Shown piece by piece: positions 16,522 to 43,928 of a DNA stretch of 64,000 bases. Positions within the stretch are counted from its first letter, which is position 1. Every line of letters begins with the position of its first letter. A program made the translations under genes and the position numbers. The stretch comes from Gemmatimonadota bacterium. Its GTDB lineage: Bacteria; Gemmatimonadota; Gemmatimonadetes; Gemmatimonadales; GWC2-71-9. Where the stretch lies: NCBI GenBank assembly GCA_009692115.1, contig SHZU01000001.1, positions 421,598 through 485,597 on the forward strand, written 5' to 3'. Under the pieces are notes generated by a model. It was given only the letters and a program-made list of their open reading frames with translations, was not told where the DNA came from and searched no databases.

Positions 16522-16527
16522 TGGCGC

Positions 16528-17676: not shown

Positions 17677-17680
17677 CCGC

Positions 17681-20234: not shown

Positions 20235-20713
20235 TCCTTGATCGTCGGGATCGGGCGAACCGGAGCATGGCCCCGCTTGTACACCAGAATGGTGCGCCGG
20301 AACGTCATCACTACGGTGCCGTCCTGTTTGTACCCGGTGGTCTTGATTTCAACGATGCCCATGGTGGGCCGGGAGCCCGAGTCCCGAGTGCTCAACACTT
20401 CGGTCTGGGCGTAAATCGTGTCACCCTCGAAGACCGGGGCCGGCATCCGAATATCCTGCCAACCCAGATTGACTGCGTTCTGGGAGATGTCGGACACCGT
20501 GAGGCCCACCACCAGCGCCAACGTAAACGTCGAGTTGACGAGCGGCTGGCCGAACTCGGTCTGGGCCGCGTAATGGCGGTCGAAGTGGATCGGGTTGCTG
20601 TTGTTGGTGAGGAGCGTAAACCAGGCATTGTCGGTACTGGTGACGGTCCGGCCAATGGCGTGCCGAACGACCAACCCGACCTGGAAGTCCTCGTAGGACC
20701 GAGCCTCACTCAT
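20231..20713 (-). CDS. MaoC-like (R)-specific enoyl-CoA hydratase/dehydratase (hot-dog fold)
   Basis: 160 aa. TDNAWFTLLTNNSNPIHFDRHYA and GWQDIRMPAPVFEGDTIYAQTEVL are typical of MaoC dehydratases, the mesaconyl-/itaconyl-CoA hydratase type of family. Confidence 0.8.
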   Translation of the reverse strand: MSEARSYEDFQVGLVVRHAIGRTVTSTDNAWFTLLTNNSNPIHFDRHYAAQTEFGQPLVNSTFTLALVVGLTVSDISQNAVNLGWQDIRMPAPVFEGDTIYAQTEVLSTRDSGSRPTMGIVEIKTTGYKQDGTVVMTFRRTILVYKRGHAPVRPIPTIKE

Positions 20714-21654: not shown

Positions 21655-21662
21655 AGTTGGTC

Positions 21663-24202: not shown

Positions 24203-25146
24203 GCCGGAGGCGGCTTCACCATGGCGGCGTACTTCGCCCCGAGCCCGGACTCCGGCGACTGGGGCCCGAACACCGACACCAGACCGCGGACCAGATTCAT
24301 CCCGACCACCGAGATGTGGGACTCATCGGGGAAGATCCGGGTCGATAACTGCAGACCGGGATACTTCTTGGCTCGGAGCATGGTTTCCAGGCGGAGAACA
24401 TTGGTCACCATCCGGGACGAGGCGGCCGGCCCCATTTCTTCGAGACCGCCGACGCCGATGAACACGTTGGCGCGGAGGTCGCTGTGGGTCTTTCCGTACG
24501 CCTCGGCCAGCTTGAGGGCGTCTTCCCCACCCCACCAGAGCGACGGGCTCCCGATGATATAGCGGTTGAAGGTGTCGGGCTTGGTGAACAGCACGTAGGA
24601 TCCGAACAGGCCCCCCAACGAATCGCCCCAGTAGCCCCGGTCGGCGGGATCGGTCGAATAGCGGGCGTCGATGAACGGCATCAGTTCATCGCGGATGAAG
24701 GCGAGGAATTTGTCCGCTCCTCCGCTGGTGACCAGGGGCCGGAGCACCCCGGCCACCGGCATGCCTCCCCCGCCCTCGCGGTCCTTGACCAGTACCTGAG
24801 TCAGATCGCGGGACCGGATGAAGGTGGCTTGCATGATACTCGAAGCCCCCGGATACCCGATCCCGACCGCAATGTACCGCGGCGTGTCGTTCATCACCAT
24901 CAGCCGCAAGTGGTCCTCGTCGACGATGAACCCGTTGTGGACGTCGGTCATGTAGACGACCGGGAACCGAGTCGTCTCGCCGGGGATCATCGGGGGCAGC
25001 AGCACCCGGATTTCAAAGGAATCACCCACGGCCTTCGACACCAGCCGATGGGTCGTGACCGGCGCCACGGTGATGAGCGGCTGAGCAACCGCCGGCCCGG
25101 CGGCGAGGCCCACGAGCAGTCCCCCGGCGGCGAGGCAAATCTTCAT
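24199..25146 (-). CDS. Secreted alpha/beta-hydrolase, 'putative esterase' (IroE/enterochelin-esterase-like) family
   Basis: ATG 25146 has AGGAG upstream. Signal peptide MKICLAAGGLLVGLAAGPAVAQ. Nucleophile elbow GDSLGG. The stop overlaps the PrpD-family start (ATGA). The 177-aa upstream extension of the listed ORF was rejected. Confidence 0.7.
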   Translation of the reverse strand: MKICLAAGGLLVGLAAGPAVAQPLITVAPVTTHRLVSKAVGDSFEIRVLLPPMIPGETTRFPVVYMTDVHNGFIVDEDHLRLMVMNDTPRYIAVGIGYPGASSIMQATFIRSRDLTQVLVKDREGGGGMPVAGVLRPLVTSGGADKFLAFIRDELMPFIDARYSTDPADRGYWGDSLGGLFGSYVLFTKPDTFNRYIIGSPSLWWGGEDALKLAEAYGKTHSDLRANVFIGVGGLEEMGPAASSRMVTNVLRLETMLRAKKYPGLQLSTRIFPDESHISVVGMNLVRGLVSVFGPQSPESGLGAKYAAMVKPPPA

Positions 25147-25314
25147 GGTGATACCTTGAGGCTCCTGGTGGGGTCGTGATGTGGCTCCGCTCTGAGCAAG
25201 ACGCCACTGAGTCCAATCTATCCCCGGGCCGAGGGCCAAGCCACGGACCTTCACCGGCCGTCCTCGGGCGCCAGATCGCCGGAATCCTGACCCAAGCCCT
25301 GAGCGAGCCGTAAG

Positions 25315-25662
25315 TTGGCCGGCATCGAAGCCCGCCACCTCGGCGATTTGCTCGACGCCGACCTGGTGATCCTGCCGGTCCCGGTCCGGCTGGAACTGCT
25401 CGCCGGCTCGCCGCGCAAGGCTCACCGCCAATTGCGGGACCACCTGTCGGCCGTGCCCCGGGCGGTTCCCGAGAAAGCAACCTGGGTCCGGATCGACACC
25501 TGGGTCACCACCGCCGTCGAGGCCGGTCATCGGTTTGGCTTGGCCGACCTCCTGATCGCCGCCACCGCGGCCGATCACCAAGCCACACTCTGGTCTCTCG
25601 ATTCCGATTTTGTCAGGATGGAACGACTGGGCTTCGTGTCCCTCCATGCCCCCGGGAAGTAG
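25315..25662 (+). pseudogene. PIN-domain (VapC-like) toxin gene lacking its N-terminal strand
   Basis: The C-terminal two thirds of a PIN domain are present: RLELLAG, GLADLLIAATAADHQATLWSLDSDF. The first acidic residue (DTS-type strand) is missing. There is an in-frame stop at 25300-25302 and only a TTG start. No convincing antitoxin lies upstream. Confidence 0.45.
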
Positions 25663-25708
25663 CCGCGGCGGGGCCAACTAGCCTTCGATCCCAACGACCG
25701 GACCGGTC

Positions 25709-32651: not shown

Positions 32652-34088
32652 TTATGGCTTGATCGGGCGCCGAACGGCCAGGCCTGGTACCGCACCCGCC
32701 ACCAACGCTTCGTCCCGCACCACGAACGTCCCGTTCACCACGACATGGACGATCCCCGTCGAGGCCACGGCGGGCTCGGCAAAGGTGGCCCGGTCGATCA
32801 CCCGGGCTGGATCGAAGATCGTGAGGTCGGCGTCGGCGCCGACGTTGATCCGGCCCTTGTTCCGCATCTGGGGCACCGAGGCCTCGAGCCGCTGGGCCGG
32901 AAGCAGCGTCATCTTCCGGATCGCCTCCATTAGGCTCAAGGTCTTTTTCTCTCGGACGTAGCGGCCGAGCACCCGGGCGTAGGTACCCGCCCCACGAGGG
33001 TGAGCCCGTCCGTTCACGTAGGTCACCCCGTCGCTCGCGATCGCGACCAGCGGATGGGCCACCGCGAAGTCGACCGCCGTCTCGGGAATCACGTGGGCGA
33101 TGATCGGTCCGCCCTCGGCCCGGCGGCGATAGAAACTCGCCGAGTCGAGCCGTTCGCCGGTAGCGACCCACTCGATGTCGCGATAATCCACGCCGAGCCG
33201 CTCGCGCCAACCCGGATCGAAGATCGCGGCACGGATGTCGGTCGAGGCGGCGGTATAGGGATAGACCTCGGTGCTGATGTCGACACCGTGCTTCCGGGCG
33301 CCCTCGATCATGGCGAGAATTTCGGGAACCTGGCCGATCCCACTGCTGCCGACGTGGACCATGTGGACCGGAGCCCCCGACACCGCCGCGGCCGCGATCA
33401 GCTCTTGGACCGCTTCGACGCTGCTCCCCGGCTCCTTGACCGAGGCAAACCGGTCGTGGACGAAGTTGACGACGCCCCGCTCCTCCGCCACCCGAAACAT
33501 TCGAACGATCTCGCCGCGGGTGGTGCCCGGCAGGTATTGAATCCCGTAGCCGATACCTAACGCACCCTGGTCGACTCCCGCTCGAACCCGGGCGACGATC
33601 TGTTCGATCTCGTCGGGCCGGGCGTTCCGATAGACCACCCCGGGCCCGTTCGGCAGCGTGTCCCGGATCACCTCGCCGCGAGCGCCGCCGTGCGACATGG
33701 TGGCGCCGTAGTTGATCACCGCGCGGCCCTCCCGTTCCCGGTACCAGCCAGCGACGTCGTCCGCGCCGCCTTCGAGTTCGAGTGCCGTGGTGACGCCGTC
33801 TTGGGCTTGGAGCCGGCTGCTGAACGGGTCCTGCCCGTGGGCGTGGAGGTCGATGAAGCCGGGGGCGATCACGAGTCCTTTGACATCGACCGTCACCCGG
33901 CCGGCCAGCGGGCCGGCCGAGATCGCGGCGATCCGGCGTCCGGTGATCCCGATCGAGCGGATGGCGTCGAGCTTCGACGCCGGGTCGATGACCCGGCCGC
34001 CGGTGAGGACGAGGTCGTAGCGCGGCGGCTGGGCCTGGGTGGAGGCCGGCAGGGCCGCGAGAGCAAGGGCGACGAAAACAGGGCGCAT
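32652..34088 (-). CDS. D-aminoacylase-type amidohydrolase (paralogue of 4459..5895)
   Basis: Signal peptide MRPVFVALALAALPASTQAQ. Motifs PGFIDLHAHGQDP, IASDGV, GRINVGADADLTIFDP. Confidence 0.8.
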   Translation of the reverse strand: MRPVFVALALAALPASTQAQPPRYDLVLTGGRVIDPASKLDAIRSIGITGRRIAAISAGPLAGRVTVDVKGLVIAPGFIDLHAHGQDPFSSRLQAQDGVTTALELEGGADDVAGWYREREGRAVINYGATMSHGGARGEVIRDTLPNGPGVVYRNARPDEIEQIVARVRAGVDQGALGIGYGIQYLPGTTRGEIVRMFRVAEERGVVNFVHDRFASVKEPGSSVEAVQELIAAAAVSGAPVHMVHVGSSGIGQVPEILAMIEGARKHGVDISTEVYPYTAASTDIRAAIFDPGWRERLGVDYRDIEWVATGERLDSASFYRRRAEGGPIIAHVIPETAVDFAVAHPLVAIASDGVTYVNGRAHPRGAGTYARVLGRYVREKKTLSLMEAIRKMTLLPAQRLEASVPQMRNKGRINVGADADLTIFDPARVIDRATFAEPAVASTGIVHVVVNGTFVVRDEALVAGAVPGLAVRRPIKP

Positions 34089-34108
34089 CAGGGGTCCGTT
34101 GATTGGGG

Positions 34109-34429
34109 TTACTCGCCGTACATTTCCGTGATCAGCCGCCGGAGTGCTTGGGCCTCATCCGGCGACAGGCGCCCGGCCTTGGCGCCAAGCCGCGACTTGC
34201 TAATCGTCCTGATTTGATCGACCGCCACCTCCGCTTTTCGTCCCCCGACCCGGCACGGCAACCGAGTCCGCCAGGCCGGGCGCAACTGGGTCGTGAGGGG
34301 ACAGATCGTGACGGTTTTGAGGACGGCGTTGAGGTCGTCGAGGCTCACCACGACCACTAGCCGAGTCTTGGACATTTCCGAACCCAGCACCGGATCGAGA
34401 TTCGCCCAGCGGACGTCGTACCGCTTCAC
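34109..34429 (-). CDS. mazF: MazF/PemK family mRNA interferase toxin
   Basis: VKRYDVRWANLDPVLGSEMSKTRLVVVVSLDDLN...ICPLTTQ...AVDQIRTISKSRL. GTG 34429 overlaps the antitoxin stop (GTGA at 34426-34429). Confidence 0.85.
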   Translation of the reverse strand: MKRYDVRWANLDPVLGSEMSKTRLVVVVSLDDLNAVLKTVTICPLTTQLRPAWRTRLPCRVGGRKAEVAVDQIRTISKSRLGAKAGRLSPDEAQALRRLITEMYGE

Positions 34430-34749
34430 CGCGTCCGCCGCCGCGGGCCTTTCGCCGCCGGGCGTTCCGCGACTCGGGCCACCGGATCGTCCCACGGAAC
34501 CGTATCGAGGCCGTCCATCGCGACGGCGTCCCAGCCCTCCCAGTCCTCCCCGGCCGCCGCCATGGCTTGCGCGGTCTCGGCCCAAGATAGTTTAGCCGGC
34601 CCGCCATGCAGCGGACGAAGCAGGATGCCGTCGCTTCGCTCCTCCATCACGACAGCCGCGTCGATCCGATACCGGGCCAGGGTGGCGGCCGGGATCCGGA
34701 CCCCGCGGGAGTTGCCGATCCGATTCACCTTCAGCTCGACCGGTTTCAT
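34426..34749 (-). CDS. mazE: AbrB/MazE/SpoVT-type antitoxin
   Basis: KVNRIGNSRGVRIPAATLARYRI is the swapped-hairpin SpoVT/AbrB motif. Lies immediately upstream of and overlaps mazF. Confidence 0.8.
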   Translation of the reverse strand: MKPVELKVNRIGNSRGVRIPAATLARYRIDAAVVMEERSDGILLRPLHGGPAKLSWAETAQAMAAAGEDWEGWDAVAMDGLDTVPWDDPVARVAERPAAKGPRRRTR

Positions 34750-34758
34750 GTTATAACA
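34749..34758. promoter_or_regulatory. 10-bp perfect palindrome TGTTATAACA abutting the mazE start codon (candidate operator or -10 region)
   Basis: It is the only AT-rich patch in the 96-bp mazE/mauB divergent spacer, and the palindrome was read directly. No Shine-Dalgarno sequence lies between it and the ATG. Confidence 0.3.
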
Positions 34759-34845
34759 GTAGCCACATTCGTGGGATCGGGCCAGCCGGTCTGCCCAAGG
34801 ACTCAGCTCGGCTTGCGGGCCGGTTCCGACTCACGGTAACCTTAG

Positions 34846-36051
34846 ATGAACCCCGTCCCGCTCCTCGGCTCGCAGTCAGGTATCCCCATGGGAACGTCTC
34901 CGTTGCCAGACATCCGTCGATCGGCCGTTGCCGGACTCATGGCCGCCGCCTTCGCCTCCGGACCGGTCGCGGCGCAGCTCAAGCCCGAACCGCTGACCAC
35001 CGCCGCCTTGCCGGCCGCGAGCCCGCACTGGGTCTGGGTCAACGACATCGTCTTCCACCACATGGCCGACGGTAAGGCCTTCCTGATCGACGGCAACGCC
35101 GGAAAAATGCTCGGCATGCTGAGTACCGGCTTCGGCTTCACCGGGCTTAAGCTCGTCCCGGACGGTTCGGTGATCGTCTCGCCGGAGACGTACTTCTCGC
35201 GCGGAACCCGGGGAACCCGAACCGACGTCGTGACCCTCTACGACGCCAAGACGCTCAACTTCCAGGCCGAGATCGGGATCCCGGCCAAGCGGGCCGGCCA
35301 GCTCCCGATGACCTCGACGAGCGGGATCACCGACGACGGCCGGTTTCTCCTGGTGTACAATTTTACGCCGGCTCAGACCGTCTCGGTCGTCGACCTCAAG
35401 TCCCGGAAGTTCGTGGGCGAGGTGGACATCCCGGGTTGCGCCGAGGTGTACCCAACGGGCCCGCGAAGCTTTTTCTCGTTGTGCGGCGACGGCACCGCGT
35501 TCCAGGTCACGCTCGACGAGACCGGCAAGCCCGCGGCGCGGAGCCGCTCGGCCAAGTTCTTCGACGCGCTCAAGGACCCGGTCACCGAGAAGGGGATCCG
35601 GGACGGGAACACTTGGCTCTTCGCCACCTTCGCCGGTGACATGGTGCCGGTCGAGGCCACGGCGTCGGGCCTCAAGGCCCAGGCCCGCTGGCCCTTGAGC
35701 ACCCCGGCCGAACGGCAGCAGAACTGGAAGCCCGGGGGCATGCAACACCTCGCGATCCATGCCAAGAGTCGCCGTCTCTACAGCTTGATGCACCAGGGCG
35801 GTCCCGACACCCATAAAGACCCGGGCGTCGAAGTCTGGGTTCACGATCTGGCGGCCGGCGGCAAGAAGGTCCAGCGGATCCCGCTCGAGAAGCCGCTCAC
35901 CTCCATCGCGGCGACCAGTGATGCCAAGCCACTCCTCTTCGGGATCAACATCGGGATCCCGGAACTCCGGGTGTTCGACGCCATGAGCGGGAAGCTCCTC
36001 CGCACCGTGGCCGAGATCGGGTTTACACCGAGTACCTTGGTCACCCGCTGA
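34846..36051 (+). CDS. mauB: TTQ-dependent amine dehydrogenase heavy (large) subunit, seven-bladed propeller
   Basis: Collinear with methylamine dehydrogenase heavy chains: HWVWVNDIVFHHMADGKAFLIDGNAGKMLGMLSTGF, SRGTRGTRTDVVTLYD, DGRFLLVYNFTPAQTVSVVDL, NWKPGGMQ. The alternative start is ATG 34888. Confidence 0.9.
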   Translation: MNPVPLLGSQSGIPMGTSPLPDIRRSAVAGLMAAAFASGPVAAQLKPEPLTTAALPAASPHWVWVNDIVFHHMADGKAFLIDGNAGKMLGMLSTGFGFTGLKLVPDGSVIVSPETYFSRGTRGTRTDVVTLYDAKTLNFQAEIGIPAKRAGQLPMTSTSGITDDGRFLLVYNFTPAQTVSVVDLKSRKFVGEVDIPGCAEVYPTGPRSFFSLCGDGTAFQVTLDETGKPAARSRSAKFFDALKDPVTEKGIRDGNTWLFATFAGDMVPVEATASGLKAQARWPLSTPAERQQNWKPGGMQHLAIHAKSRRLYSLMHQGGPDTHKDPGVEVWVHDLAAGGKKVQRIPLEKPLTSIAATSDAKPLLFGINIGIPELRVFDAMSGKLLRTVAEIGFTPSTLVTR

Positions 36052-36052
36052 A

Positions 36053-36592
36053 ATGGAAATAGCCCTCGACCCCGCGGTCGGCTGGATCGTTGCCCTCTCA
36101 CTCGGCCTTCTGCTCGGCGCGGCGGCGCTCCACAAGCTCCGCGAGCCGGCCCGGTTCCGGTCGGCACTGGCCGGATACCGGATCCTGCCGGAAGGGGCCC
36201 TCGGCCTGGCCGGCATCGTGGTGATCGGCACTGAACTCGGGAGCACCGTCCTGTTGGTGCTTCCCGCAACCCGGCCCCTTGGCGGCGGCCTCGCGGCGAC
36301 ACTGCTGGCCGGCTATGGCGCAGCCATCGCTCTCAACCTGCTCCGCGGCCGGACCCGAATCGACTGCGGCTGTCTCGGGTTCGGCACGAGCGAGAGAATC
36401 GCCTGGTGGATGGTGGGACGAAACGGCGTCCTGGCAGCGGCGGCCCTGGCCGTCCGGCTGCCGTCCGGCGCGCGAACGCTCGAGGGACTCGACTGGTTGA
36501 CTGTAGCCGGAACGGTTGCGGCCATCGCGGCACTCTTCTCCGCCGCGAGCCGGCTCGCCTCGCTCCCATCGCTCCGGAGCGGGGCGGCATGA
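36053..36592 (+). CDS. mauE: MauE-type membrane protein (amine dehydrogenase small-subunit maturation/export)
   Basis: Four-TM protein, LGLLLGAAALHKLREPARFRSALAGYRILP with a CGC motif (IDCGCLGFG). ATG lies 1 nt after the mauB stop, and the position in the cluster fits. Confidence 0.8.
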   Translation: MEIALDPAVGWIVALSLGLLLGAAALHKLREPARFRSALAGYRILPEGALGLAGIVVIGTELGSTVLLVLPATRPLGGGLAATLLAGYGAAIALNLLRGRTRIDCGCLGFGTSERIAWWMVGRNGVLAAAALAVRLPSGARTLEGLDWLTVAGTVAAIAALFSAASRLASLPSLRSGAA

Positions 36593-37200
36593 GTCCGGCC
36601 GGCTGGGTGGCAATCGGCGCGCTCTGGGTGGTGGTACTGGCCCTCGGCCTCACGGTGCTCGCGCTGGCGCGGCAAATCGGCGTGCTCCACGAGCGGCTCC
36701 AGCCGGTTGGCGCGCTGTCCTTGCAGAAGGGCCTCCAGGCTGGGGAGCCCGCACCGGAAATTTTGGTGGACACGCTCACGGGCCGTTCACTCCAGATCGG
36801 CGGGCGCCATGAGCGCGGGGCCGACACCTTGGTAATGTTCGTCTCGCCCACCTGCCCGATCTGCAAGACGCTCCTCCCCGCCCTCCGCGCCATTCGGCGG
36901 CGGGAAGCGCCTCGGGTGGAGGTGGTGCTCGCGAGCGACGGCCCGCGCGCCGAACACGAGGCGTTCGTCGCCGCGGAATCGCTGGACGAGTTCCCCTACG
37001 TGCTGTCCGAGCGGCTCGGTCTCGGATACGGGGCGGGACGGCTGCCCCACGCCGTGCTGCTCGACGCGGCGGGGACGGTCCGGGCAACCGGCTTGGTCAA
37101 TTCCCGGGAACACCTCGACAGTCTCTTCGAGGCCAAGGATCGCGGGGTGGCGTCGCTCCAGGAGTTCCTCGAGCGGTCGGCGCGGCGCGAAGTCGCCTGA
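36589..37200 (+). CDS. mauD: MauD-type thioredoxin-fold protein
   Basis: ATG 36589 overlaps the mauE stop (ATGA). N-terminal TM anchor and a CPIC (CxxC) motif within VMFVSPTCPICKTLLP. Confidence 0.8.
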   Translation: MSPAGWVAIGALWVVVLALGLTVLALARQIGVLHERLQPVGALSLQKGLQAGEPAPEILVDTLTGRSLQIGGRHERGADTLVMFVSPTCPICKTLLPALRAIRRREAPRVEVVLASDGPRAEHEAFVAAESLDEFPYVLSERLGLGYGAGRLPHAVLLDAAGTVRATGLVNSREHLDSLFEAKDRGVASLQEFLERSARREVA

Positions 37201-37219
37201 AAACAACGGAGATCTCGAC

Positions 37220-37729
37220 ATGGCTCGATACGACGACGTGGTCGAACGGTTGACCCGGCACCTGGCCCAAACGGTGTCGCGCCGGAGCGTGCTCCGGTCG
37301 TTAGGCGGCTTCCTGGCGGGCGCCGCGGCGGTGCCGCTGCTCCCGATTGCCCGGGGCGTCCGGCCGGCCGCCGGCGCCGCGGCCCCGGACGAGAGCTCGT
37401 GCGATTACTGGCGCTACTGTTCCATCGACGGCTTCCTCTGCGCCTGCTGCGGTGGTTCCGCCACCGCCTGCCCGCCGGGCACCGAAGCGGCGACGCTGAC
37501 GTGGGTCGGCACCTGCCGGAATGCCTCCGACGGCCGGAACTACATCGTGTCGTACAACGACTGTTGCGGCAAGAGCTCCTGCGGGCGGTGCCTCTGCAAC
37601 CGCAACGAGGGCGACCGCCCGCTGTACCAGCCGAGTCTGGCCAACGACTACAACTGGTGCGTGGGAAGCAAGAGCGGGTCGCCGTATCACTGCACCGTGT
37701 CCCGGATCGTGGGAGTCGCGCCCGAGTGA
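37220..37729 (+). CDS. mauA: TTQ-dependent amine dehydrogenase light (small) subunit precursor
   Basis: Twin-Arg leader SRRSVLRSLGGFLAG. CDYWRYCSIDGFLCACCGGSATACPPGT...LTWVGTC...DCCG...NDYNWCVG...YHCTVSRIVG is collinear with MADH light chains. The two TTQ tryptophans (W95, W146) are conserved with the canonical 51-residue spacing. GGAG lies about 10 nt upstream. Confidence 0.92.
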   Translation: MARYDDVVERLTRHLAQTVSRRSVLRSLGGFLAGAAAVPLLPIARGVRPAAGAAAPDESSCDYWRYCSIDGFLCACCGGSATACPPGTEAATLTWVGTCRNASDGRNYIVSYNDCCGKSSCGRCLCNRNEGDRPLYQPSLANDYNWCVGSKSGSPYHCTVSRIVGVAPE

Positions 37730-38151
37730 GGCGACGCGTGTGGCCAGCGGCGCTCGGGTGGCTGGCCGCGGCCTGCGCGCACCCCGCACCGAGCGGGGAA
37801 CTCACGCTGGCCGAGCAGAACTACTTCATCCACTGCATGGGGTGCCACGGGGAAAACGGGGCCGGCCTCGAGGGCCAGGTCCCTGACCTCCGAAAGGACC
37901 TGGCCCGGCTCGCGGCGCTTCCCGGCGGGCGGGCCTACATCCTTCGGGTGCCGGGCGTGACCCAGACCAGCCTCGAACCAGAGCGCACGGCTGAGGTCCT
38001 GAACTACACCCTGCGCCAGTTCGGCGGTGCGGAGGTGGCCCGGCGGATCACGCCGTTCACCGCGGCGGAGGTGGCCGCGGCCCGGGCCATCCCGCTGCTG
38101 GAGATCTCCGCCACACGGGCCGGCGTGATCGAGGGCCGCGGGCTCCCGTAA
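37726..38151 (+). CDS. Small monoheme c-type cytochrome with signal peptide
   Basis: GTG 37726 overlaps the mauA stop (GTGA). Single CMGCH heme site. N-terminus VRRRVWPAALGWLAAAC is a possible lipobox. 141 aa. Confidence 0.7.
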   Translation: MRRRVWPAALGWLAAACAHPAPSGELTLAEQNYFIHCMGCHGENGAGLEGQVPDLRKDLARLAALPGGRAYILRVPGVTQTSLEPERTAEVLNYTLRQFGGAEVARRITPFTAAEVAAARAIPLLEISATRAGVIEGRGLP

Positions 38152-38160
38152 CCCAGGCCA

Positions 38161-38191
38161 ATCAGTAGCGTTTCGCCGGGGCTTGGTCGGT
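38161..38191. repeat. 31-bp direct repeat, copy A (ATCAGTAGCGTTTCGCCGGGGCTTGGTCGGT)
   Basis: Identical to 39202..39232, read directly. Copy A is intergenic, 10 nt after the cytochrome c stop. Confidence 0.9.
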
Positions 38192-38264
38192 TTGCTCCCC
38201 GGATGTCCCCGTTCAGGCGGAGTTGTTCAGCCTCCCAGGCTCGCTGTCCAACGCCCCTAGCCGG

Positions 38265-38744
38265 CTACCGATTGAGCCACCAAAAACCCCCGTTCAGGAC
38301 GGTCGCGAACGCCACCCAGGCGAGATAGGGCGCCAACAACAATGCGGCCCCTCGTGACACCGCCGCGAACCGGCGCATGGTCACTCCGATCAGCACCAGC
38401 AGAACGACGATGTCGAACAGTGCGAGGAGCGGCTGCCTCAGGCCGAAGAACAGCCACGACCAGGCGAGATTGAGGCCCAGCTGAACCCCGAAGACCATCA
38501 AGGTGCTCCGCACCTCGGGCCGCGAAAACCCCTGTCGCCAAACGAGCCAGCTGGCCACTCCCATCATCAGGTAGAGCGTGGTCCACACCGGGCCGAACAC
38601 CCAGGAGGGCGGCGCGAAGGACGGCCGCACCAAGGCGGGATACCAGGTGCGGACGGAGTCCATCGTGGCGAACGATCCCAATCCGCCCCCCACCAGCGGC
38701 AGCAGCACGGCCAGGATCAAGACCACGATGCCGCGCAGCTTCAC
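38265..38744 (-). CDS. tspO: TspO/MBR tryptophan-rich sensory protein
   Basis: WYPALVRPSFAPPSWVFGPVWTTLYLMMGVASWLVW...NLAWSWLFFG...APYLAWVAFATVLN. GTG 38744 overlaps the upstream stop (GTGA). Confidence 0.85.
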   Translation of the reverse strand: MKLRGIVVLILAVLLPLVGGGLGSFATMDSVRTWYPALVRPSFAPPSWVFGPVWTTLYLMMGVASWLVWRQGFSRPEVRSTLMVFGVQLGLNLAWSWLFFGLRQPLLALFDIVVLLVLIGVTMRRFAAVSRGAALLLAPYLAWVAFATVLNGGFWWLNR

Positions 38745-39148
38745 GCCCAGGCCCTCGCGCCCAGCACCACCGCGGCGCTGACCGTCGCCGACAGGACGGC
38801 CCCCCATGCCAAGTCCACCACGGCAACCGTGACCGGGAAGTCCCGCAGCAGCGCCAGGGCGGTCAGGTCGAACGCGGCGTAGGCGGCGAGACCAAAGAAC
38901 GCGCCATAGGCGACGGCGCGACCCACGGATTGCCGCTCCACCGCCGGCGCCGCCACGAACACGACCAGCGCCGCGACGAAGATGAGGTAGAAGAGCACCG
39001 CGGGAAGCCATTGAACGTTCGGGCGCATGAGGTGGCCGATCTGGTGCTGATAGAAGTTCTTGGCCACCAGGCCGATCCACAGCAGATCGAGGGCGAAGAA
39101 CGTCACCACCCCAACCCCGTACATTTTGAGGAAGCTCGAGACCGTCAC
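38741..39148 (-). CDS. DUF2177-like small membrane protein
   Basis: 135 aa, 4 TM. FALDLLWIGLVAKNFYQHQIG resembles the DUF2177 N-terminus. Translationally coupled to tspO. Confidence 0.55.
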   Translation of the reverse strand: MTVSSFLKMYGVGVVTFFALDLLWIGLVAKNFYQHQIGHLMRPNVQWLPAVLFYLIFVAALVVFVAAPAVERQSVGRAVAYGAFFGLAAYAAFDLTALALLRDFPVTVAVVDLAWGAVLSATVSAAVVLGARAWA

Positions 39149-39201
39149 GTCAACACCGTCTGGCCCCTCGGGGCCGGTTGAGATGGGAAACCGCGTGACA
39201 C

Positions 39202-39232
39202 ATCAGTAGCGTTTCGCCGGGGCTTGGTCGGT
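39202..39232. repeat. 31-bp direct repeat, copy B (covers the last 9 codons plus the stop of the amidohydrolase gene)
   Basis: Identical to 38161..38191. On the minus strand it encodes ...TDQAPAKRY*. Confidence 0.9.
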
Positions 39233-40594
39233 CCGGCTCCGCTTCGGCATCAGGGCCGTCCCGCCCTGCACCACAATCTCCCCGTCCCGAATGACCCATT
39301 CGACCCGAGTCAGATCGTCGAGGTTGGTGTCGGGGTTCCCCCGAACCACCAGGACATCGGCCAGCTTCCCCACTTCCACGGTCCCGAGCTTGTCGTCCAT
39401 GTCGAGCAGCATCGCATTGGTCTTGGTGGCAATGCCAAGCACCTCGGGAATCGAGAAGCCGACCGAGACGAGGTTCTTGAGTTCGATCAGGTACGGCGCG
39501 GGCAGCCGCCGGTACCAGTCAGTCACCAGGTCCGTCCCGACGCCTAACGTGATCCCGGCCTTCTTGAGTCGGCGAAGCACGCCGAGATTCGCGTCTTTGC
39601 CGAAGGTGAACCGGCGCGACGTCGACCCGAAGTAACCGCCGTCGTCATCGAAGATGTACATGTAGGGCACGAGCGTCGGATCGGAGGCGACGCCCTTGGC
39701 GGCCATTTTCTGGATCACTTCGTCCGTGCGCGGGAGCGGGTGCTCGATCATGTCGACCCCGGCGTCGACCGCCCAGTCGATGTAGAACGTCTCGCAATCG
39801 CAGGTGATCTTGAGGCCGAGCGCGTGGGCTTCCTCCACCGCGGCCTTGATTTCGTCGCGGCTGAAGTGACTGGTCACCTTGATGAAGTCCGCGCCTTTGT
39901 CGAATTGTTCGCGGACCGCCTTCCGCCAATCGTCCGCGCCGCTCGCAATCCGGAAATTCCCGTGGTCCGGGGTCGACCCCAACCCCTCGGCGCTATGGCC
40001 GCCCGGCCCGGTGATCAGCCGTCCGGCGGCAAAGATCCGCGGTCCGGTCAGCCGATGGTCGGACACCCAGGCCCGGAGGCGGAAGATGCCGTCGAGCGAC
40101 CCGACGTCGCGGGTCGTGGTAATCCCGCTCTCGATATAGAACCGCATCCGCTCCATCCCGCGGAGCATCCCGTCGGCCATGTCATCCACCAGCGGAGGCG
40201 GGATCGTCGCGATCTGGCCGTCGGTCAGGTGGGTGTGGAGATCGATCAGTCCGGGCATCACCGTCATGCCCTTGACGTCGATGATCCGGGCGCCGGCCGG
40301 CCAGTTGGTGACACCCGGCGCCGAGACCCGGGTGATTTTGTTCCGCTCGATCACCACGTTCATCTCGCGGGCGGGCGCGCCGGTGCCGTCGAAGACCCGC
40401 CCGCCGGTCAAGACGATCGAGCCGTCGGGGCCCCGCGGCGCATTCCCGACCAGCACCCGTCTCGGGTCGTCGGTGGTTTGGCTGGTGGGGGCCAGAAAAC
40501 GGCGTCGATCGGCGGCTCGGTCCTGGGCCACCAACGGCAGCGCCGCCAGCACCAGAAGGCCGGCGACCGCTGACAATCGGGCGAAGAACAGCAT
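39203..40594 (-). CDS. Amidohydrolase family protein, secreted (paralogue of 12625..14031)
   Basis: Signal peptide MLFFARLSAVAGLLVLAALPLVAQ. Motifs PGLIDLHTHLTD, GADFIKVTSHF, GITLGVGTDL, GTVEVGKLADVLVVRGNP. Confidence 0.8.
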   Translation of the reverse strand: MLFFARLSAVAGLLVLAALPLVAQDRAADRRRFLAPTSQTTDDPRRVLVGNAPRGPDGSIVLTGGRVFDGTGAPAREMNVVIERNKITRVSAPGVTNWPAGARIIDVKGMTVMPGLIDLHTHLTDGQIATIPPPLVDDMADGMLRGMERMRFYIESGITTTRDVGSLDGIFRLRAWVSDHRLTGPRIFAAGRLITGPGGHSAEGLGSTPDHGNFRIASGADDWRKAVREQFDKGADFIKVTSHFSRDEIKAAVEEAHALGLKITCDCETFYIDWAVDAGVDMIEHPLPRTDEVIQKMAAKGVASDPTLVPYMYIFDDDGGYFGSTSRRFTFGKDANLGVLRRLKKAGITLGVGTDLVTDWYRRLPAPYLIELKNLVSVGFSIPEVLGIATKTNAMLLDMDDKLGTVEVGKLADVLVVRGNPDTNLDDLTRVEWVIRDGEIVVQGGTALMPKRSRTDQAPAKRY

Positions 40595-40711
40595 GGATTC
40601 CTCAGATTCGGTATCGGCCTATTCTACACCCGCGGTGCAGTAACGGCGAGCGGAATCCCGCGCTATGTTTCAAAGGATTCGTCAGACCACCCTTCGCCGG
40701 AGCACCCCCCG

Positions 40712-42364
40712 ATGACCAAAACCCGCCGGTCCACCAGGCTCTGGGCGGCATTGTCGGTGACCGCGCTGCCCCTGGCAGCGCAGACCCCGGCGGCCGTGCT
40801 CGACAGCACCTTCGCCCAGTGGGGCAGTACTCACGGGCCGGGTTGCACGGTCGGCGTCGACTTCGCCGGCACCCGGACCACCCGGGCGTACGGCATGGCC
40901 AACCTTGAATCCGGGGTTCCGCTCCGCCCCGGCTCAGTCCTCGAGTCCGGCTCGGTGGCCAAACAGTTCACCTCGGCGGCCGTGGCCTTGCTGGCGCTCC
41001 GGGGCCGCCTCTCGCTCGATGACGACATCCGCCGTCAGCTGCCCGAGGTGCCCAACTTCGGCACGCCGATTACGATCCGCAACTTGCTGCAACACACCAG
41101 CGGGCTCCGCGACCAGTGGGCCCTGCTGTCCATCCAGGGGTTTCCGCCCGGAACCGAAGTGCACACGCTGGCCCGGATCCTCGACCTCGTGCAGCACCAG
41201 CAGCGGCTCAATTTCTCCCCGGGCAGCGAATACCTCTACAGCAACACCGGCTACGCGCTCGCGGCGATCATCGTCCAACGGGTATCGGGCAAATCCCTCG
41301 CCGACTTCTCGCGCGACGAGTTGTTCACGCCCCTCGGCATGACCCGAACCGAGTGGCGGGCCGACTATCGGAAGGTGGTGGCCGACCGAGCCACGGCGTA
41401 CGCCCCCACCGGCGGCGGGTGGCTCCAGGACATGCCGTTTACCAATGTCCACGGTAACGGCGGCCTCCTCACCACCGTGGACGACCTGCTCCGATGGAAC
41501 GAGGCGCTTACCAAAGGCACCATCCCCGGCGGCGCGGCGCTGGTGGCCCTGCTCGAAACCCCGGGCAAGCTCACCGACGGTTCGCCGATCGGCTACGGGC
41601 TCGGGCTCAGCATCGGAACCTTCCACGGCCTTCGGGCCGTCAACCACGGCGGCGCCACGGCGGGGTACCGGACGTTTCTCGCGCGCTGGCCGACCCGCGA
41701 CCTCTCCGTCGCGGTGTTGTGCAATGCCGCAAGTGCCGATGCCGGCGGAGCCGCCAGCCGGATCGCGATCCGGCTCCTCGGACTCCCCGCCGTCGAGGCG
41801 CCACCGGGCCCGGCGGTGGCGATCGAGGCCGCCGAACTGCCGGCCATGGCCGGCGTCTACCGAGACTCGACCTCCGACCAAACCGTCACCTTCCGGGTTG
41901 CCGACGGCGGGCTGACCGCGAGCAACGGCGGCCCCCAGGCGTCGCTGGTCCATCTGGGCAACGGGCGGTTCTGGCATGCGGCGGCCGGCGAATTCCGGTT
42001 CGAGCGCCAGGGGGATCGATGGGAAGTGGTCCAGTACGCTGATGCGTGGCGGCGCTTCCGCTTGGAGCCGGCCGGAGGGGCCGCCGCCCCGCTCACCGAT
42101 TACGCCGGGGAATATCGGAGCCCGGAATTGGAAGTGACCTACCGGATCGAGGCAGAGGGCCGGTCCCTCCTGCTCCGGTCTCGCCCGGACGATCGAGAGT
42201 CCTTTCAGCCGGCCTACCGCGACGGCTTTCGGAATGGCGGGCAAACCCTGCGCTTCATGCGTGACCAGAAAGGCCGGGTCACCGGCTTTCGGATGTTTGC
42301 GGGCCGAGCCCGCGATGTCCGGTTCGAACGTGCTCCGATCACTGCCACCAGAGACCCGAGGTAG
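40712..42364 (+). CDS. Serine hydrolase, beta-lactamase family, secreted
   Basis: Signal peptide ...LWAALSVTALPLAAQ. SVAKQFTSAAV (SxxK), YSNTGY, HGGATAGY. Confidence 0.85.
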   Translation: MTKTRRSTRLWAALSVTALPLAAQTPAAVLDSTFAQWGSTHGPGCTVGVDFAGTRTTRAYGMANLESGVPLRPGSVLESGSVAKQFTSAAVALLALRGRLSLDDDIRRQLPEVPNFGTPITIRNLLQHTSGLRDQWALLSIQGFPPGTEVHTLARILDLVQHQQRLNFSPGSEYLYSNTGYALAAIIVQRVSGKSLADFSRDELFTPLGMTRTEWRADYRKVVADRATAYAPTGGGWLQDMPFTNVHGNGGLLTTVDDLLRWNEALTKGTIPGGAALVALLETPGKLTDGSPIGYGLGLSIGTFHGLRAVNHGGATAGYRTFLARWPTRDLSVAVLCNAASADAGGAASRIAIRLLGLPAVEAPPGPAVAIEAAELPAMAGVYRDSTSDQTVTFRVADGGLTASNGGPQASLVHLGNGRFWHAAAGEFRFERQGDRWEVVQYADAWRRFRLEPAGGAAAPLTDYAGEYRSPELEVTYRIEAEGRSLLLRSRPDDRESFQPAYRDGFRNGGQTLRFMRDQKGRVTGFRMFAGRARDVRFERAPITATRDPR

Positions 42365-42367
42365 TCC

Positions 42368-43188
42368 ATGTCACCGAAATCCGATATCGGGAGCGTCCTG
42401 CTGTGCACGGCCCTCGCCGTGCTTTTCCCCGGTTTGGCCGGGGTCGCGTCGGCCCAGAACCTCGTTCGGTCCAGATTACCACCGAGCGGCTGGCACCCGG
42501 GATGTATGTCCTCTTCGGCGAGGGGGGCAACATCGGCCTCGCGGTGGGGCCCGATGCCGTGTTCGTGGTCGACGATCAATTCGCGCCGCTCACCCCGAAG
42601 ATCCTCGCGGCCATCGCCACGATTACCGACAAACCGGTCCGCTTCCTCGTCAACACCCACTGGCACTTCGATCATTCCGGCGGCAACGAGAACATGGCGA
42701 AGGCCGGCGCGCTCCCGGTCGTGACCTTCAATGACGTCCTGACCTTCCATCTCAACGGCGGGGAGATCACCGCGATCCACCTGGCGGCGGCCCACACCGA
42801 CGGTGATGCCGCGATCTACTTTCGAGGCCCCAATGTCGTGCACATGGGCGACGTCTATGTTCGGTACGGGTTCCCATTCATCGGCCTGTCGAGCGGGGGG
42901 TCCCTCAGCGGGATGATCACAGCCGTCGACATGATGTTCGGGATCATCAACGACAGCACCAAGATCATCCCGGGCCACGGCAAAGTCGCCAATCGGGCCA
43001 ACCTCCGCGCCTACCGCGACGTGCTCGCGACGATCCACGAACGGGTCCGGAAGCAGGCCGCGGCCGGAGCCAGTCTCGACCGGATCATCGCATCAAAGCC
43101 GACCCGGGAGTTCGACGCCACCTGGGCTGGGTTCATCAAAGCGGATGATTTCGTTCGGTTTGCGTATGCGGGCGTGCCGCACCGCTGA
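42368..43188 (+). pseudogene. MBL-fold metallo-hydrolase with its signal peptide in a different frame from the catalytic body
   Basis: ATG 42368 has GAGG 7-10 nt upstream and encodes MSPKSDIGSVLLCTALAVLFPGLAGVASAQNLVR. The body (ORF 42403..43188) carries VQITTERLAPGMYVL...NTHWHFDHSGGN (HxHxDH) in the -1 frame. The junction is near 42462-42470 (ctcgttcggtccag). Confidence 0.65.
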
Positions 43189-43928
43189 TCACCGGGGCCA
43201 GCAGTGGCATCGGATTCGCCACCGCCAAGGCGTTTTCGGCCAAGGGCGTGAGCGTGGTCCTCGGCGCCCGCCGCGAGGAGGAGTTGGCCGCGCTCGCCGC
43301 CGAGATCAAGGCAAGCGGGGGGCAGGCTGCCTACCTCAAGACGGACGTCTCCATCGCGAGCGACGTGGAACGGTTGGTTGATCACGCGGTTCAGACCTTC
43401 GGGCGCCTCGATTTCGGCATCAACAACGCCGGCATCGAGGGCGCCTTCGCCCCGATCGTCGATTTCGACGAAGCCGCGTGGGATCAGGTCATGGGCATCA
43501 ACCTGAAGGGCACCTTCCTCGGCGTGAAGTACGAGGCGAGGGCCATCCTGAAAAGCGGGCGGGGCGGCGCCATCGTCAACGTCGGCTCGGTCAACTCATT
43601 CCTCGGGTTTGGAGGCGGAACCGGCTACGCGACGTCGAAGCACGGCCAGGTCGGACTCACCACGAGCGCATCCGCCGAACTCGCGCCCCAAGGAATCCGG
43701 GTCAACCTCGTCTGTCCTGGGCTGATCGATACGCCAATGCATCACCGGATCCGGGGAGTGGCCAGCGATGAGCTAGTTGACACCATGATTCAGGGGCGGG
43801 TTCATCTGAAGCGGGTCGGCCGACCAGAGGAGATTGCCGCCTCGATCGTCTTCCTCTGCTCCGACGACGCGAGCTATATCACCGGCACCACCCTGACGCC
43901 CGACGGCGGCTTCACCATGACGCTCTAG
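43185..43928 (+). CDS. SDR family oxidoreductase without a canonical start codon ahead of its Rossmann motif
   Basis: LITGASSGIGFATAKAF begins at CTG 43185, inside the MBL stop codon. The frame has a stop at 43146-43148 and no ATG/GTG/TTG until GTG 43248, which would delete TGxxxGIG. NNAG and YATSKHGQVGL (YxxxK) are present. Confidence 0.55.
   Translation: MITGASSGIGFATAKAFSAKGVSVVLGARREEELAALAAEIKASGGQAAYLKTDVSIASDVERLVDHAVQTFGRLDFGINNAGIEGAFAPIVDFDEAAWDQVMGINLKGTFLGVKYEARAILKSGRGGAIVNVGSVNSFLGFGGGTGYATSKHGQVGLTTSASAELAPQGIRVNLVCPGLIDTPMHHRIRGVASDELVDTMIQGRVHLKRVGRPEEIAASIVFLCSDDASYITGTTLTPDGGFTMTL

What the first reader, a model, noticed from the sequence alone, without database searches (positions are those of the whole stretch)
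34846..38151. Minimal TTQ amine dehydrogenase cluster (mauB-E-D-A plus monoheme cytochrome c) with no mauG, amicyanin or mauF in the window
Seen in sequence: the heavy-chain propeller, the MauE-like membrane protein, the CPIC thioredoxin-fold MauD and the light-chain precursor are tightly packed. The gap is 1 nt at mauB/mauE, there are ATGA and GTGA overlaps at mauE/mauD and mauA/cytochrome c, and a 19-nt gap at mauD/mauA. They are followed by a 141-aa protein with one CMGCH site.

The light chain keeps both TTQ tryptophans (W95 in LTWVGTC, W146 in YNWCVG, 51 residues apart) and has a twin-arginine leader. I count 14 cysteines in it, against the 12 (six disulfides) I recall for the Paracoccus light chain. 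The extras are in CACCGG and KSSCGRC.

Established knowledge: classical mau loci (Paracoccus mauRFBEDACJGMN, Methylobacterium mauFBEDACJGLMN) include the diheme MauG that completes TTQ, and amicyanin (mauC). From memory, the Alcaligenes faecalis aromatic amine dehydrogenase locus is aauBEDA followed by a small monoheme cytochrome c ORF, which is the arrangement seen here.

Inference: this is more likely an aromatic or primary amine dehydrogenase of the aau type than a methylamine dehydrogenase. Its genomic context suggests a non-proteobacterial host, which would be unusual for TTQ enzymes. How TTQ is matured without a linked MauG is an open question.
Basis: partly seen in the sequence, partly recalled or inferred. 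Interest (0 to 1): 0.75.

Follow-up and report, generated by a model that had tools for sequence, protein, structure and literature searches.

The report
Aromatic-type TTQ amine dehydrogenase operon, Gemmatimonadota
This is an intact five-gene operon for a quinoprotein amine dehydrogenase, of the same kind as the known Alcaligenes aromatic amine dehydrogenase locus, sitting in a Gemmatimonadota genome; the whole clade lacks the usual cofactor-maturing enzyme MauG and instead carries a small cytochrome c that has lost its normal methionine haem ligand.

Summary
The 64-kb window holds no MauG, amicyanin or mauF/J/M/N.

The real Alcaligenes faecalis aau locus has the same order, and its orf-2 is a homologue of the window's cytochrome (E 3e-23). 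The flanks are 91-95% identical to a Gemmatimonadota MAG.

The missing MauG is a clade-wide trait. Among 71 related loci, 68 carry this cytochrome, one carries a distant MauG-like gene and none carries amicyanin. Among 25 Paracoccus-type loci, all carry MauG and none carries the cytochrome. The two extra cysteines always occur together (335 both, 19 neither, 0 one), so they probably form a seventh disulfide. They are the common state, not a peculiarity.

New here: the linked cytochrome is a Thermus c552-like protein that has lost the loop carrying the axial methionine.

Verdict: a new member of a known kind, reached by horizontal transfer of a five-gene cassette. The cytochrome is most likely the electron acceptor. 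A role in TTQ maturation is not excluded.

The parts
34846..36051 (+). Heavy (alpha) chain, seven-bladed propeller of a TTQ amine dehydrogenase (aauB/mauB-like). The alternative start is 34888. The leader is DIRRSAVAGLMAAAFASGPVAAQ.
   Evidence: PF06433 E 4e-57. Best solved relative is A. faecalis AADH 2h3x_A at 191 bits, against 178 bits for MADH. TIGR02658 scores 207 bits against a cut-off of 454. Homology to L004 begins at 34854.
36053..36592 (+). MauE/AauE membrane protein with a CGC motif (aa 105-107, nt 36365-36373). Predicted DsbB-like disulfide oxidase.
   Evidence: PF07291 E 1e-24. Motif position. The DsbB-like function and the CXC active site were shown for MauE homologues in bioRxiv 10.64898/2026.03.05.709764.
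36589..37200 (+). MauD/AauD, a membrane-anchored thioredoxin-fold protein with CPIC (aa 89-92, nt 36853-36864). Predicted DsbA-like partner of MauE for the light-chain disulfides.
   Evidence: TIGR02661 MauD E 1e-52, 178 bits against a cut-off of 189. Weak AhpC/Redoxin/Thioredoxin_2 hits. ATGA overlap with mauE.
37220..37729 (+). Light (beta) chain precursor. It has a twin-arginine leader (SRR aa 20-22), TTQ tryptophans W95 and W146, catalytic Asp114, and 14 Cys including the co-varying pair C77/C121.
   Evidence: PF02975 E 4.5e-51. PDB alignments. Column conservation over 354 sequences.
37726..38151 (+). Monohaem c-type cytochrome, orthologue of A. faecalis aau orf-2. CMGCH at aa 37-41 (nt 37834-37848). 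Thermus c552-like fold lacking the axial-Met loop. N-terminus ...WLAAAC fits a lipoprotein signal. An alternative start at 37738 gives 137 aa.
   Evidence: AF2 model with pLDDT 89. Foldseek best match is T. thermophilus c552. Profile search against PDB gives E 1e-16, with a 16-18 residue deletion covering the Met. No conserved Met or His in 77 homologues.

Best explanation
A self-contained, horizontally acquired five-gene operon (aauB-E-D-A-orf2 type) in a Gemmatimonadota genome. It encodes a periplasmic alpha2-beta2 TTQ-dependent primary-amine dehydrogenase.

Shown by sequence: the heavy-chain propeller and the twin-arginine light chain keep both TTQ tryptophans, the catalytic Asp and all core cysteines. 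All five genes are intact and under purifying selection.

Inferred from established knowledge of the family: MauE (a DsbB-like membrane oxidase with a CXC motif) and MauD (a DsbA-like CxxC protein) form the seven disulfides of the light chain. The enzyme oxidises a primary amine to its aldehyde plus ammonia. Relatives sit beside genes for phenylacetate and hydroxyphenylacetate catabolism, so an aromatic or aralkyl amine is the likeliest substrate.

Inferred from position: the small cytochrome c overlaps the light-chain gene, so the two are probably translationally coupled, and it occupies the slot that amicyanin (mauC) holds in classical clusters. It is therefore most likely the dedicated first electron acceptor passing electrons to the respiratory chain.

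TTQ completion must be done by something other than a linked MauG. That could be an unlinked CCP/MauG-family peroxidase or an unknown route. This step is not resolved.
For: Domains and motifs.

Same gene order and an orthologous orf-2 in A. faecalis.

The cassette is conserved as a unit in different genomic contexts. L002, L003, L005 and L121 share only window 34963-38150.

The cytochrome follows the light chain in 68 of 71 related loci. All three cytochrome homologues that were looked up from the cytochrome side also sit after B-E-D-A.

Conserved neighbours in relatives: aldehyde dehydrogenase in 34 loci, TonB receptor in 32, PaaK-like ligase in 26, plus HpaB and LigAB.

Differences from L004 concentrate at third codon positions in all five genes, for example 5%, 5% and 27% in the light chain.

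Gemmatimonadota assignment: the flanks are 91-95% identical to MAG OTE_70_metabat_16. Close homologues are labelled Gemmatimonadales.
Against: No catabolic genes (aldehyde dehydrogenase, regulator, transporter) adjoin the cassette in this window, so the substrate is a guess.

The cytochrome lacks any conserved sixth haem ligand, which is unusual for a simple electron carrier.

From memory of the literature, azurin is the reported acceptor in A. faecalis. PDB entries for the AADH heavy chain include 2h3x, 2h47 and 2iaa.

About 14 related loci carry an additional Met-containing cytochrome next to the Met-less one, and 6 carry a dihaem one. Either could be the real carrier.

The taxonomy rests on MAG binning.
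Confidence: 0.75

Rival explanations
1. The Met-less monohaem cytochrome c is not (only) an electron carrier. It is the TTQ-maturation factor of aau-type clusters and functionally replaces MauG. Its open or weakly ligated haem would react with H2O2 or O2 and oxidise the light-chain tryptophans.
For: The distribution is complementary. The cytochrome occurs in 68/71 aau-like loci and 0/25 MADH-type loci. MauG occurs in 25/25 MADH-type loci and 1/71 aau-like loci, and that one lies 9.8 kb away. mauF/J/M/N are also absent. The axial Met loop is deleted, and no Met or His is conserved in 77 homologues; the window's protein has no Met or His at all after CMGCH. Some loci keep a canonical Met-containing paralogue or a dihaem cytochrome beside it. 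The five-gene cassette moves as a unit between unrelated contexts. From memory, azurin is the acceptor in A. faecalis, which leaves orf-2 without a role.
Against: MauG chemistry uses two haems and a bis-Fe(IV) state (PMC11951088); a single haem has no known precedent for this. Co-occurrence is equally expected for a dedicated redox partner. The rest of these genomes could not be searched for unlinked MauG/CCP genes. No coordinates were available to inspect the distal pocket.
Confidence: 0.2
2. It is a classical methylamine dehydrogenase whose mauG, amicyanin and other accessory genes simply lie elsewhere in the genome, so the locus is an ordinary split mau system.
For: Public annotation calls the relatives 'methylamine dehydrogenase light chain'. 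The best single PDB score is the P. versutus MADH precursor, but only because that entry includes the leader. Tyr156 is MADH-like; the A. faecalis clade has Phe there.
Against: All three scored proteins fall below the MADH equivalog cut-offs. The MauG-linked clade is separated with 100/100 bootstraps. The signature motifs DGFLC, WVGTC, SYNDCCGK and NWC match the aau-like group, not MADH's DGNIC, WVASC, AYRDCCG and IWC. Relatives sit in aromatic-acid catabolic contexts.
Confidence: 0.05
3. The cassette is a silent or decaying horizontal acquisition with no function in this host.
For: It has no adjacent regulator or catabolic genes. A toxin-antitoxin pair sits immediately upstream. It is more diverged from L004 (85.6%) than the flanks are (91-95%).
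Against: All five ORFs are intact. Every catalytic and structural residue is kept. Substitutions are strongly biased to third codon positions. The same cassette persists in several Gemmatimonadota-labelled contigs.
Confidence: 0.03

Closest known systems
Alcaligenes faecalis aromatic amine (aralkylamine) dehydrogenase locus aauBEDA-orf2 (EC 1.4.9.2)
   Same: Identical gene order B-E-D-A followed by a small monohaem cytochrome c. The cytochromes are homologous (E 3e-23) and share the RVPG motif without an axial Met. The light chain has 14 Cys. There is no mauF/C/J/G/M/N within 10 kb.
   Different: The light-chain core is only 54% identical and lies in a different subclade, nearest Steroidobacteraceae-type Gammaproteobacteria. 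The window has Tyr156 where AADH has Phe. It has no adjacent aldehyde dehydrogenase, orf-1 porin-like gene or AraC regulator. The host is Gemmatimonadota. The cytochrome has a lipoprotein-like leader.
Paracoccus denitrificans/versutus methylamine dehydrogenase cluster mauRFBEDACJGMN (EC 1.4.9.1)
   Same: Homologous B, E, D and A genes in the same order. Same TTQ tryptophans, catalytic Asp and 12 core cysteines. The light chain has a twin-arginine leader.
   Different: No mauF, amicyanin, mauJ, mauG, mauM or mauN. Two extra cysteines. Scores fall below the MADH equivalog cut-offs. A cytochrome c occupies the place of amicyanin.
Thermus thermophilus cytochrome c552 (PDB 1c52, 1dt1)
   Same: Best structural and profile match of the linked cytochrome: TM about 0.6, profile E 1e-16. 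Shared motifs are CxGCH, GGRxYL, AxVLN and PFTAxEV.
   Different: The aau-linked family lacks the 16-18 residue loop that carries the axial Met of c552. The aligned positions hold G, V, T, S or A.
MauG (dihaem c-type enzyme that completes TTQ)
   Same: A c-type haem protein encoded next to the light-chain gene. The haem of the window protein is probably not His/Met-ligated, as is true of both MauG haems.
   Different: No sequence homology. One haem instead of two. 141 aa against about 380. No evidence here of peroxidase-type chemistry.

Membership tests
TTQ-dependent amine dehydrogenases (MADH/AADH superfamily) | Light chain matches PF02975 and heavy chain matches PF06433 above the gathering scores | tested here: met
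   172.5 bits (cut-off 25) and 194.1 bits (cut-off 21)
TTQ-dependent amine dehydrogenases (MADH/AADH superfamily) | Both cofactor tryptophans present and 51 residues apart, with the catalytic Asp and 12 core cysteines conserved | tested here: met
   W95 and W146 are invariant in 354 and 353 of 354 sequences. D114 is invariant in 354/354. The core Cys are invariant. The mapping to MADH Trp57/Trp108/Asp76 is from memory of the numbering.
TTQ-dependent amine dehydrogenases (MADH/AADH superfamily) | A mature TTQ cofactor is actually formed | not testable with these tools
   Needs protein chemistry
Methylamine dehydrogenase proper (NCBIfam equivalogs TIGR02658/TIGR02659; mauFBEDACJGMN) | Scores above the curated equivalog cut-offs | tested here: not met
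   Heavy chain 207.5 against 454.45, light chain 169.1 against 196.85, MauD 178.4 against 188.6
Methylamine dehydrogenase proper (NCBIfam equivalogs TIGR02658/TIGR02659; mauFBEDACJGMN) | Linked mauG, amicyanin and mauF/J/M/N | tested here: not met
   None in the 64-kb window. By contrast MauG is linked in 25/25 MADH-type loci.
Methylamine dehydrogenase proper (NCBIfam equivalogs TIGR02658/TIGR02659; mauFBEDACJGMN) | Light chain falls inside the MauG-linked clade | tested here: not met
   The split is supported in 100/100 NJ bootstraps, and the window lies outside the clade
aau-type aromatic/aralkylamine dehydrogenase cluster (A. faecalis aauBEDA-orf2) | Gene order B-E-D-A followed by a monohaem cytochrome c homologous to orf-2 | tested here: met
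   Window cytochrome against A. faecalis orf-2: E 3e-23.
aau-type aromatic/aralkylamine dehydrogenase cluster (A. faecalis aauBEDA-orf2) | Light-chain sequence signatures and tree position alongside A. faecalis AADH | tested here: met
   DGFLC, CCGG, W[VI]GTC, CCGKxxCGRC and NWC are shared. The window lies in the same radiation, but in a different subclade, at 54% identity.
aau-type aromatic/aralkylamine dehydrogenase cluster (A. faecalis aauBEDA-orf2) | Oxidises aromatic amines (phenylethylamine, tyramine) and uses azurin as acceptor | not testable with these tools
   Only indirect evidence: relatives neighbour PaaK-like, HpaB, LigAB and aldehyde dehydrogenase genes. There is no such neighbour and no cupredoxin in this window.
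Class I c-type cytochromes, Thermus c552-like | CxxCH motif and class I fold | tested here: met
   CMGCH. AF2 pLDDT 89 with Foldseek best match 1dt1/1c52. Profile E 1e-16.
Class I c-type cytochromes, Thermus c552-like | Axial methionine as the sixth haem ligand | tested here: not met
   The loop carrying the Met is deleted. No Met or His column is conserved in 77 homologues. The window protein has none after CMGCH.

The most novel reading that the evidence does not exclude
In the large aau-like radiation of TTQ dehydrogenases, the strictly linked Met-less monohaem cytochrome c is the enzyme, or an essential part of the route, that completes TTQ. That would be a MauG-independent, single-haem pathway for making a protein-derived quinone cofactor. 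The five genes at 34846-38151 would then be sufficient to make active enzyme in any host that can attach haem c.
Probability: 0.2. Interest if true: 0.8.

Novelty: new member of a known kind. Interest (0 to 1): 0.42.

Why it matters
The locus itself is an ordinary aau-type operon in an uncommon phylum. It shows that TTQ enzymes have moved as a compact five-gene cassette from Gammaproteobacteria-like donors into Gemmatimonadota.

The broader value lies in what the comparison exposes. Current accounts treat TTQ biogenesis as MauG-dependent; the review PMC11951088 lists only MauG and does not mention AADH. Yet none of the 71 aau-like loci sampled here carries a closely linked MauG (the one MauG-like hit lies 9.8 kb away), and nearly all carry a conserved cytochrome c lacking its axial methionine, whose function has never been assigned.

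This window offers a minimal version, bounded by unrelated genes, on which the question 'what makes TTQ without MauG?' can be tested directly by expressing five genes, with and without the cytochrome.

Tried and rejected
- **Literature.** The original description of the aau cluster (doi 10.1099/00221287-147-8-2195) is not held. Searches for aau, AADH and MauG returned only general reviews. What I say about that paper and about azurin is therefore from memory.
- **Promoter and terminator scan of 34300-38600.** Nothing above chance.
- **The listing of cluster members for taxonomy.** No names were returned.
- **First NJ tree script.** It timed out and was redone with numpy.
- **The idea that 14 Cys is diagnostic of the aau type.** Rejected, because 15 of 31 MauG-linked loci also have 14.
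- **MauG just outside the cassette.** Rejected for ±10 kb in 71 loci. The only hit (L075, 9.8 kb away, 30% identity) looks like an unrelated CCP-family gene.
- **A cupredoxin among the window's small ORFs.** Rejected.
- **Regex classification of extra cytochromes.** It is noisy in high-GC alternative frames. Only L013 and L037 were read directly.


Full report
**1. What is in the sequence**

Five same-strand ORFs fill 34846-38151.

- The heavy chain (34846-36051) matches PF06433 at E 4e-57.
- MauE (36053-36592, one base after the heavy-chain stop) matches PF07291 at E 1e-24. It has a CGC motif at aa 105-107.
- MauD (36589-37200, ATGA overlap) has CPIC at aa 89-92 and matches TIGR02661 at E 1e-52.
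- The light chain (37220-37729, 19-nt gap) matches PF02975 at E 4.5e-51.
- A 141-aa ORF (37726-38151, GTGA overlap) has a single CMGCH and only a sub-threshold PF00034 hit.

The light chain has an SRR twin-arginine leader, Trp at 95 and 146, and 14 cysteines.

A six-frame scan found only one CxxCH in a coding-like frame in the whole 64 kb, the one at 37834. I took MauG, amicyanin, MauF, MauJ, MauM and MauN from a locus whose light chain is 100% identical to the P. versutus query. tblastn with these finds nothing in the window. No small ORF is a cupredoxin.

One detail differs from public gene calls. They start the heavy chain at 34939, which removes the RR-containing signal peptide. Homology to the nearest relative begins at 34854, so 34846 or 34888 is the better start.

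**2. Whose genome it is**

The exact proteins occur on ENA and NCBI MAG contigs of 206-518 kb.

I scanned one genome per GTDB species. The best locus (L004, light chain 92% identical) is 'MAG: Gemmatimonadota bacterium OTE_70_metabat_16'. All other loci are 49-72% identical. Nearly all of them are Gamma- or Alphaproteobacteria, apart from three Spirochaet*-labelled MAGs.

L004 is syntenic with the window on both sides of the cassette:
- amidohydrolase at 32659-34115, 91% identical;
- TspO, amidohydrolase, beta-lactamase and metallo-beta-lactamase genes at 38220-43631, 93-95% identical.

The cassette itself is 85.6% identical. The rest of the window is rich in secreted peptidases, amidohydrolases and PF00144 proteins. 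Close homologues carry Gemmatimonadales labels. The host assignment is therefore supported, with the usual caveat that it rests on MAG binning.

Three other contigs share only window 34963-38150, at 68-77% nt identity, and have entirely different flanks. They are L002, L003 and L005; L005 is labelled Gammaproteobacteria. L121, labelled Gemmatimonadales, carries the same five genes in yet another context. In the light-chain tree the window's group is nested among Steroidobacteraceae-like gammaproteobacterial sequences. I infer that the five genes travel as a cassette and entered Gemmatimonadota by horizontal transfer.

**3. Which kind of TTQ enzyme**

I fetched the real A. faecalis locus. Its order is: aldehyde dehydrogenase, a Phenol_MetA_deg protein, aauB, aauE, aauD, aauA, a 166-aa ORF, an AraC regulator, a 267-aa ORF, hemE. 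This matches my memory of the 2001 description (orf-1, aauBEDA, orf-2, orf-3, orf-4, hemE). The paper itself could not be read.

The 166-aa ORF is homologous to the window's cytochrome (38% identity, E 3e-23).

The window's proteins fall below NCBI's MADH equivalog cut-offs:

| Protein | Score (bits) | Cut-off (bits) |
|---|---|---|
| Heavy chain | 207 | 454 |
| Light chain | 169 | 197 |
| MauD | 178 | 189 |

As a contrast group I fetched 34 metagenome loci close to the P. versutus MADH light chain. Counting only loci with at least 3.5 kb downstream of the light chain:

| Group | Loci | MauG | Amicyanin | Window-type cytochrome |
|---|---|---|---|---|
| MADH-type | 25 | 25 | 16 | 0 |
| Window-like (including A. 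faecalis) | 71 | 1 | 0 | 68 |

The single MauG-like hit in the window-like group is in L075. It lies 9.8 kb away and is 30% identical.

MauF, J, M and N behave like MauG. Three cytochrome homologues chosen from the cytochrome side all sit directly after B-E-D-A.

In an NJ tree of 77 representative light-chain cores, the MauG-linked sequences form a long-branched clade in 100 of 100 bootstraps. The window and A. faecalis lie in the other, much more diverse radiation. The signature motifs agree. The window has DGFLC, WVGTC, SYNDCCGK and NWC. MADH has DGNIC, WVASC, AYRDCCG and IWC.

The window is thus an aau-type cluster. However, its core is only 54% identical to A. faecalis AADH, the same as to MADH, and it sits in a different subclade.

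**4. The cysteines**

The two extras relative to Paracoccus are C77 (CAC**C**GG) and C121 (KSS**C**GRC). Across 354 light chains, both are present in 335, both are absent in 19, and one alone is never seen. They have been lost independently as S/S in Paracoccus-type sequences and as Y/W in L062, L063 and L066. This perfect co-variation indicates that they pair with each other as a seventh disulfide.

Fourteen Cys is the majority state. A. faecalis has it, and so do 15 of 31 MauG-linked loci. It is therefore neither unusual nor diagnostic of the aau type. The six disulfides of Paracoccus MADH are confirmed by the 12 Cys in L086 and by the text quoted.

**5. The cytochrome**

This is the least understood part. 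It has no NCBIfam model, and most homologues have no precomputed Pfam hit.

An AF2 model built on 60 homologues has a mean pLDDT of 89. Its best PDB matches are Thermus thermophilus cytochrome c552 entries (TM about 0.6). A profile of the family hits c552 at E 1e-16.

The alignments show that the family lacks a 16-18 residue loop of c552...LLYGLQGQIEVKGMKYNGV**M**SS.... From memory, this loop carries the axial Met69. The corresponding positions in the family are P-G-V/S/A-A/S/T.

In 77 homologues no Met, His, Lys or Cys column is conserved apart from CxxCH. The window's own protein has no Met or His at all after CMGCH. The conserved features are:
- Y-x3-CxGCH;
- GR[ED][YF]L[IV][RQ]VPG;
- LNW;
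- P[FY][TS]xxE;
- two Arg residues.

About 14 related loci have a second monohaem cytochrome c between the light chain and the Met-less cytochrome. In the two read directly (L013, L037) it is c552-like and Met-containing. Six loci have a c4-like dihaem cytochrome after it.

Differences between the window and L004 are 4%, 3% and 21% at codon positions 1, 2 and 3. The cytochrome is therefore under purifying selection, like the other four genes.

**6. How it most likely works**

*Shown:* an intact TTQ dehydrogenase pair with all catalytic residues. Asp70, Asp114, Tyr156 and Thr159 align with MADH Asp32, Asp76, Tyr119 and Thr122, by numbering from memory.

*Inferred from the family:*
- The light chain is exported with its twin-arginine leader.
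- MauE re-oxidises MauD, and MauD introduces the seven disulfides. MauE homologues complement DsbB through a CXC motif, according to bioRxiv 10.64898/2026.03.05.709764.
- The enzyme converts a primary amine to an aldehyde and ammonia.

*Substrate:* relatives are flanked by aldehyde dehydrogenase (34 loci), TonB-dependent receptors (32), PaaK-like ligases (26), HpaB and LigAB. This points to phenylethylamine- or tyramine-type substrates for the clade. This window has no such neighbours, so for this genome the substrate is only a guess.

*Cytochrome:* its start overlaps the light-chain stop, and it occupies the position of amicyanin in classical clusters. The most economical reading is that it is a dedicated electron acceptor, probability about 0.6.

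The rival reading is that it takes part in TTQ maturation in place of MauG. Three things favour it: the complementary distribution, the missing axial ligand, and the extra canonical cytochromes in some loci. From memory, azurin being the A. faecalis acceptor also favours it. Against it, there is no precedent for single-haem chemistry of this kind, and co-occurrence would be equally expected for a redox partner. I put it at about 0.2.

An unlinked CCP/MauG-family enzyme remains possible and could not be tested here.

**7. Comparison with what is known, and novelty**

From memory, the absence of mauF/G/L/M/N from the aau cluster and the presence of orf-2 were reported in 2001. The locus is therefore a new member of a known kind.

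Three points are new here, as far as the literature I could search shows:
- the scale and cleanness of the MauG-versus-cytochrome dichotomy;
- the loss of the Met loop in the orf-2 family;
- the cassette's presence and mobility in Gemmatimonadota.

A 2025 review of protein-derived cofactors lists TTQ formation only as 'Enzymatic (MauG)' and never mentions AADH (PMC11951088). The question of how aau-type enzymes get their cofactor therefore appears still open.

**8. Verdict**

- Observation: confirmed.
- Novelty: low as a gene cluster.
- Interest: moderate (0.42). The compact cassette and its odd cytochrome make an old open question directly testable.

Noticed in passing
window 34109-34749 (- strand): A PemK/MazF-type toxin (34109-34429) and a 107-aa partner (34426-34749) lie immediately upstream of the cassette. 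The syntenic Gemmatimonadota MAG locus L004 has only about 130 bp here, so the pair is an insertion or deletion difference between close relatives.
   Followed up: partly
window 32659-43631 vs L004: The cassette is more diverged from L004 (85.6% nt) than the flanking genes on either side (91-95%). This may reflect recombination or faster evolution of the acquired genes.
   Followed up: no
L017 8738-13839; L018 8768-13836; L031 2765-6735: Some gammaproteobacterial loci carry two TTQ dehydrogenases in tandem (B-A then B-E-D-A-cytochrome, or B-A-B-A-cytochrome). They share one MauE/MauD pair and one Met-less cytochrome.
   Followed up: no
L037 10519-11007; L013 5701-6303 (similar ORFs in about 12 other loci): A second monohaem cytochrome c, c552-like and retaining the Met loop (GTMPA / AQMPDF), sits between the light chain and the Met-less cytochrome in sphingomonad and some Steroidobacteraceae loci.
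   Followed up: partly
L008 10942-11511, L014 11010-11612, L038 4906-5469, L051 10917-11531, L055 10884-11507: In Halieaceae/Kineobactrum-type loci, a c4-like dihaem cytochrome of about 190-200 aa directly follows the Met-less cytochrome.
   Followed up: no
L050, L057, L083: Three MAGs labelled Spirochaetales/Spirochaetaceae also carry the light chain plus the Met-less cytochrome, and their light chains group together in the tree. This is another possible non-proteobacterial home for the cassette, or a binning artefact.
   Followed up: no
window 34846-34939: Public gene calls start the heavy chain at 34939 (370 aa). That removes the n-region and the RR of the signal peptide, so the longer ORF is the better model.
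   Followed up: yes
window 600-33000 and 39200-62600: The window is unusually dense in predicted secreted hydrolases. It holds at least five PF00144 beta-lactamase-family proteins, at least six amidohydrolases, three S15 X-Pro dipeptidyl peptidases, a DPP-IV/S9 peptidase and an M28 peptidase.
   Followed up: no
window 14115-25677 (mostly - strand): A block encodes an aldehyde dehydrogenase (18795-20348), a family III CoA-transferase, an acyl-CoA dehydrogenase, an HpcH/HpaI-type lyase, MmgE/PrpD, a MaoC hydratase and two DAO-type flavoproteins. It lies about 15 kb upstream of the cassette, with no evident link to it.
   Followed up: no
L003 1-376 and 1595-7611: In a relative with a 70%-identical light chain, the cassette lies beside a quinohaemoprotein amine dehydrogenase alpha subunit, an aldehyde dehydrogenase, an AraC regulator, a TonB receptor and a PaaK-like ligase. 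Two different quinoprotein amine dehydrogenases therefore share one catabolic island.
   Followed up: no
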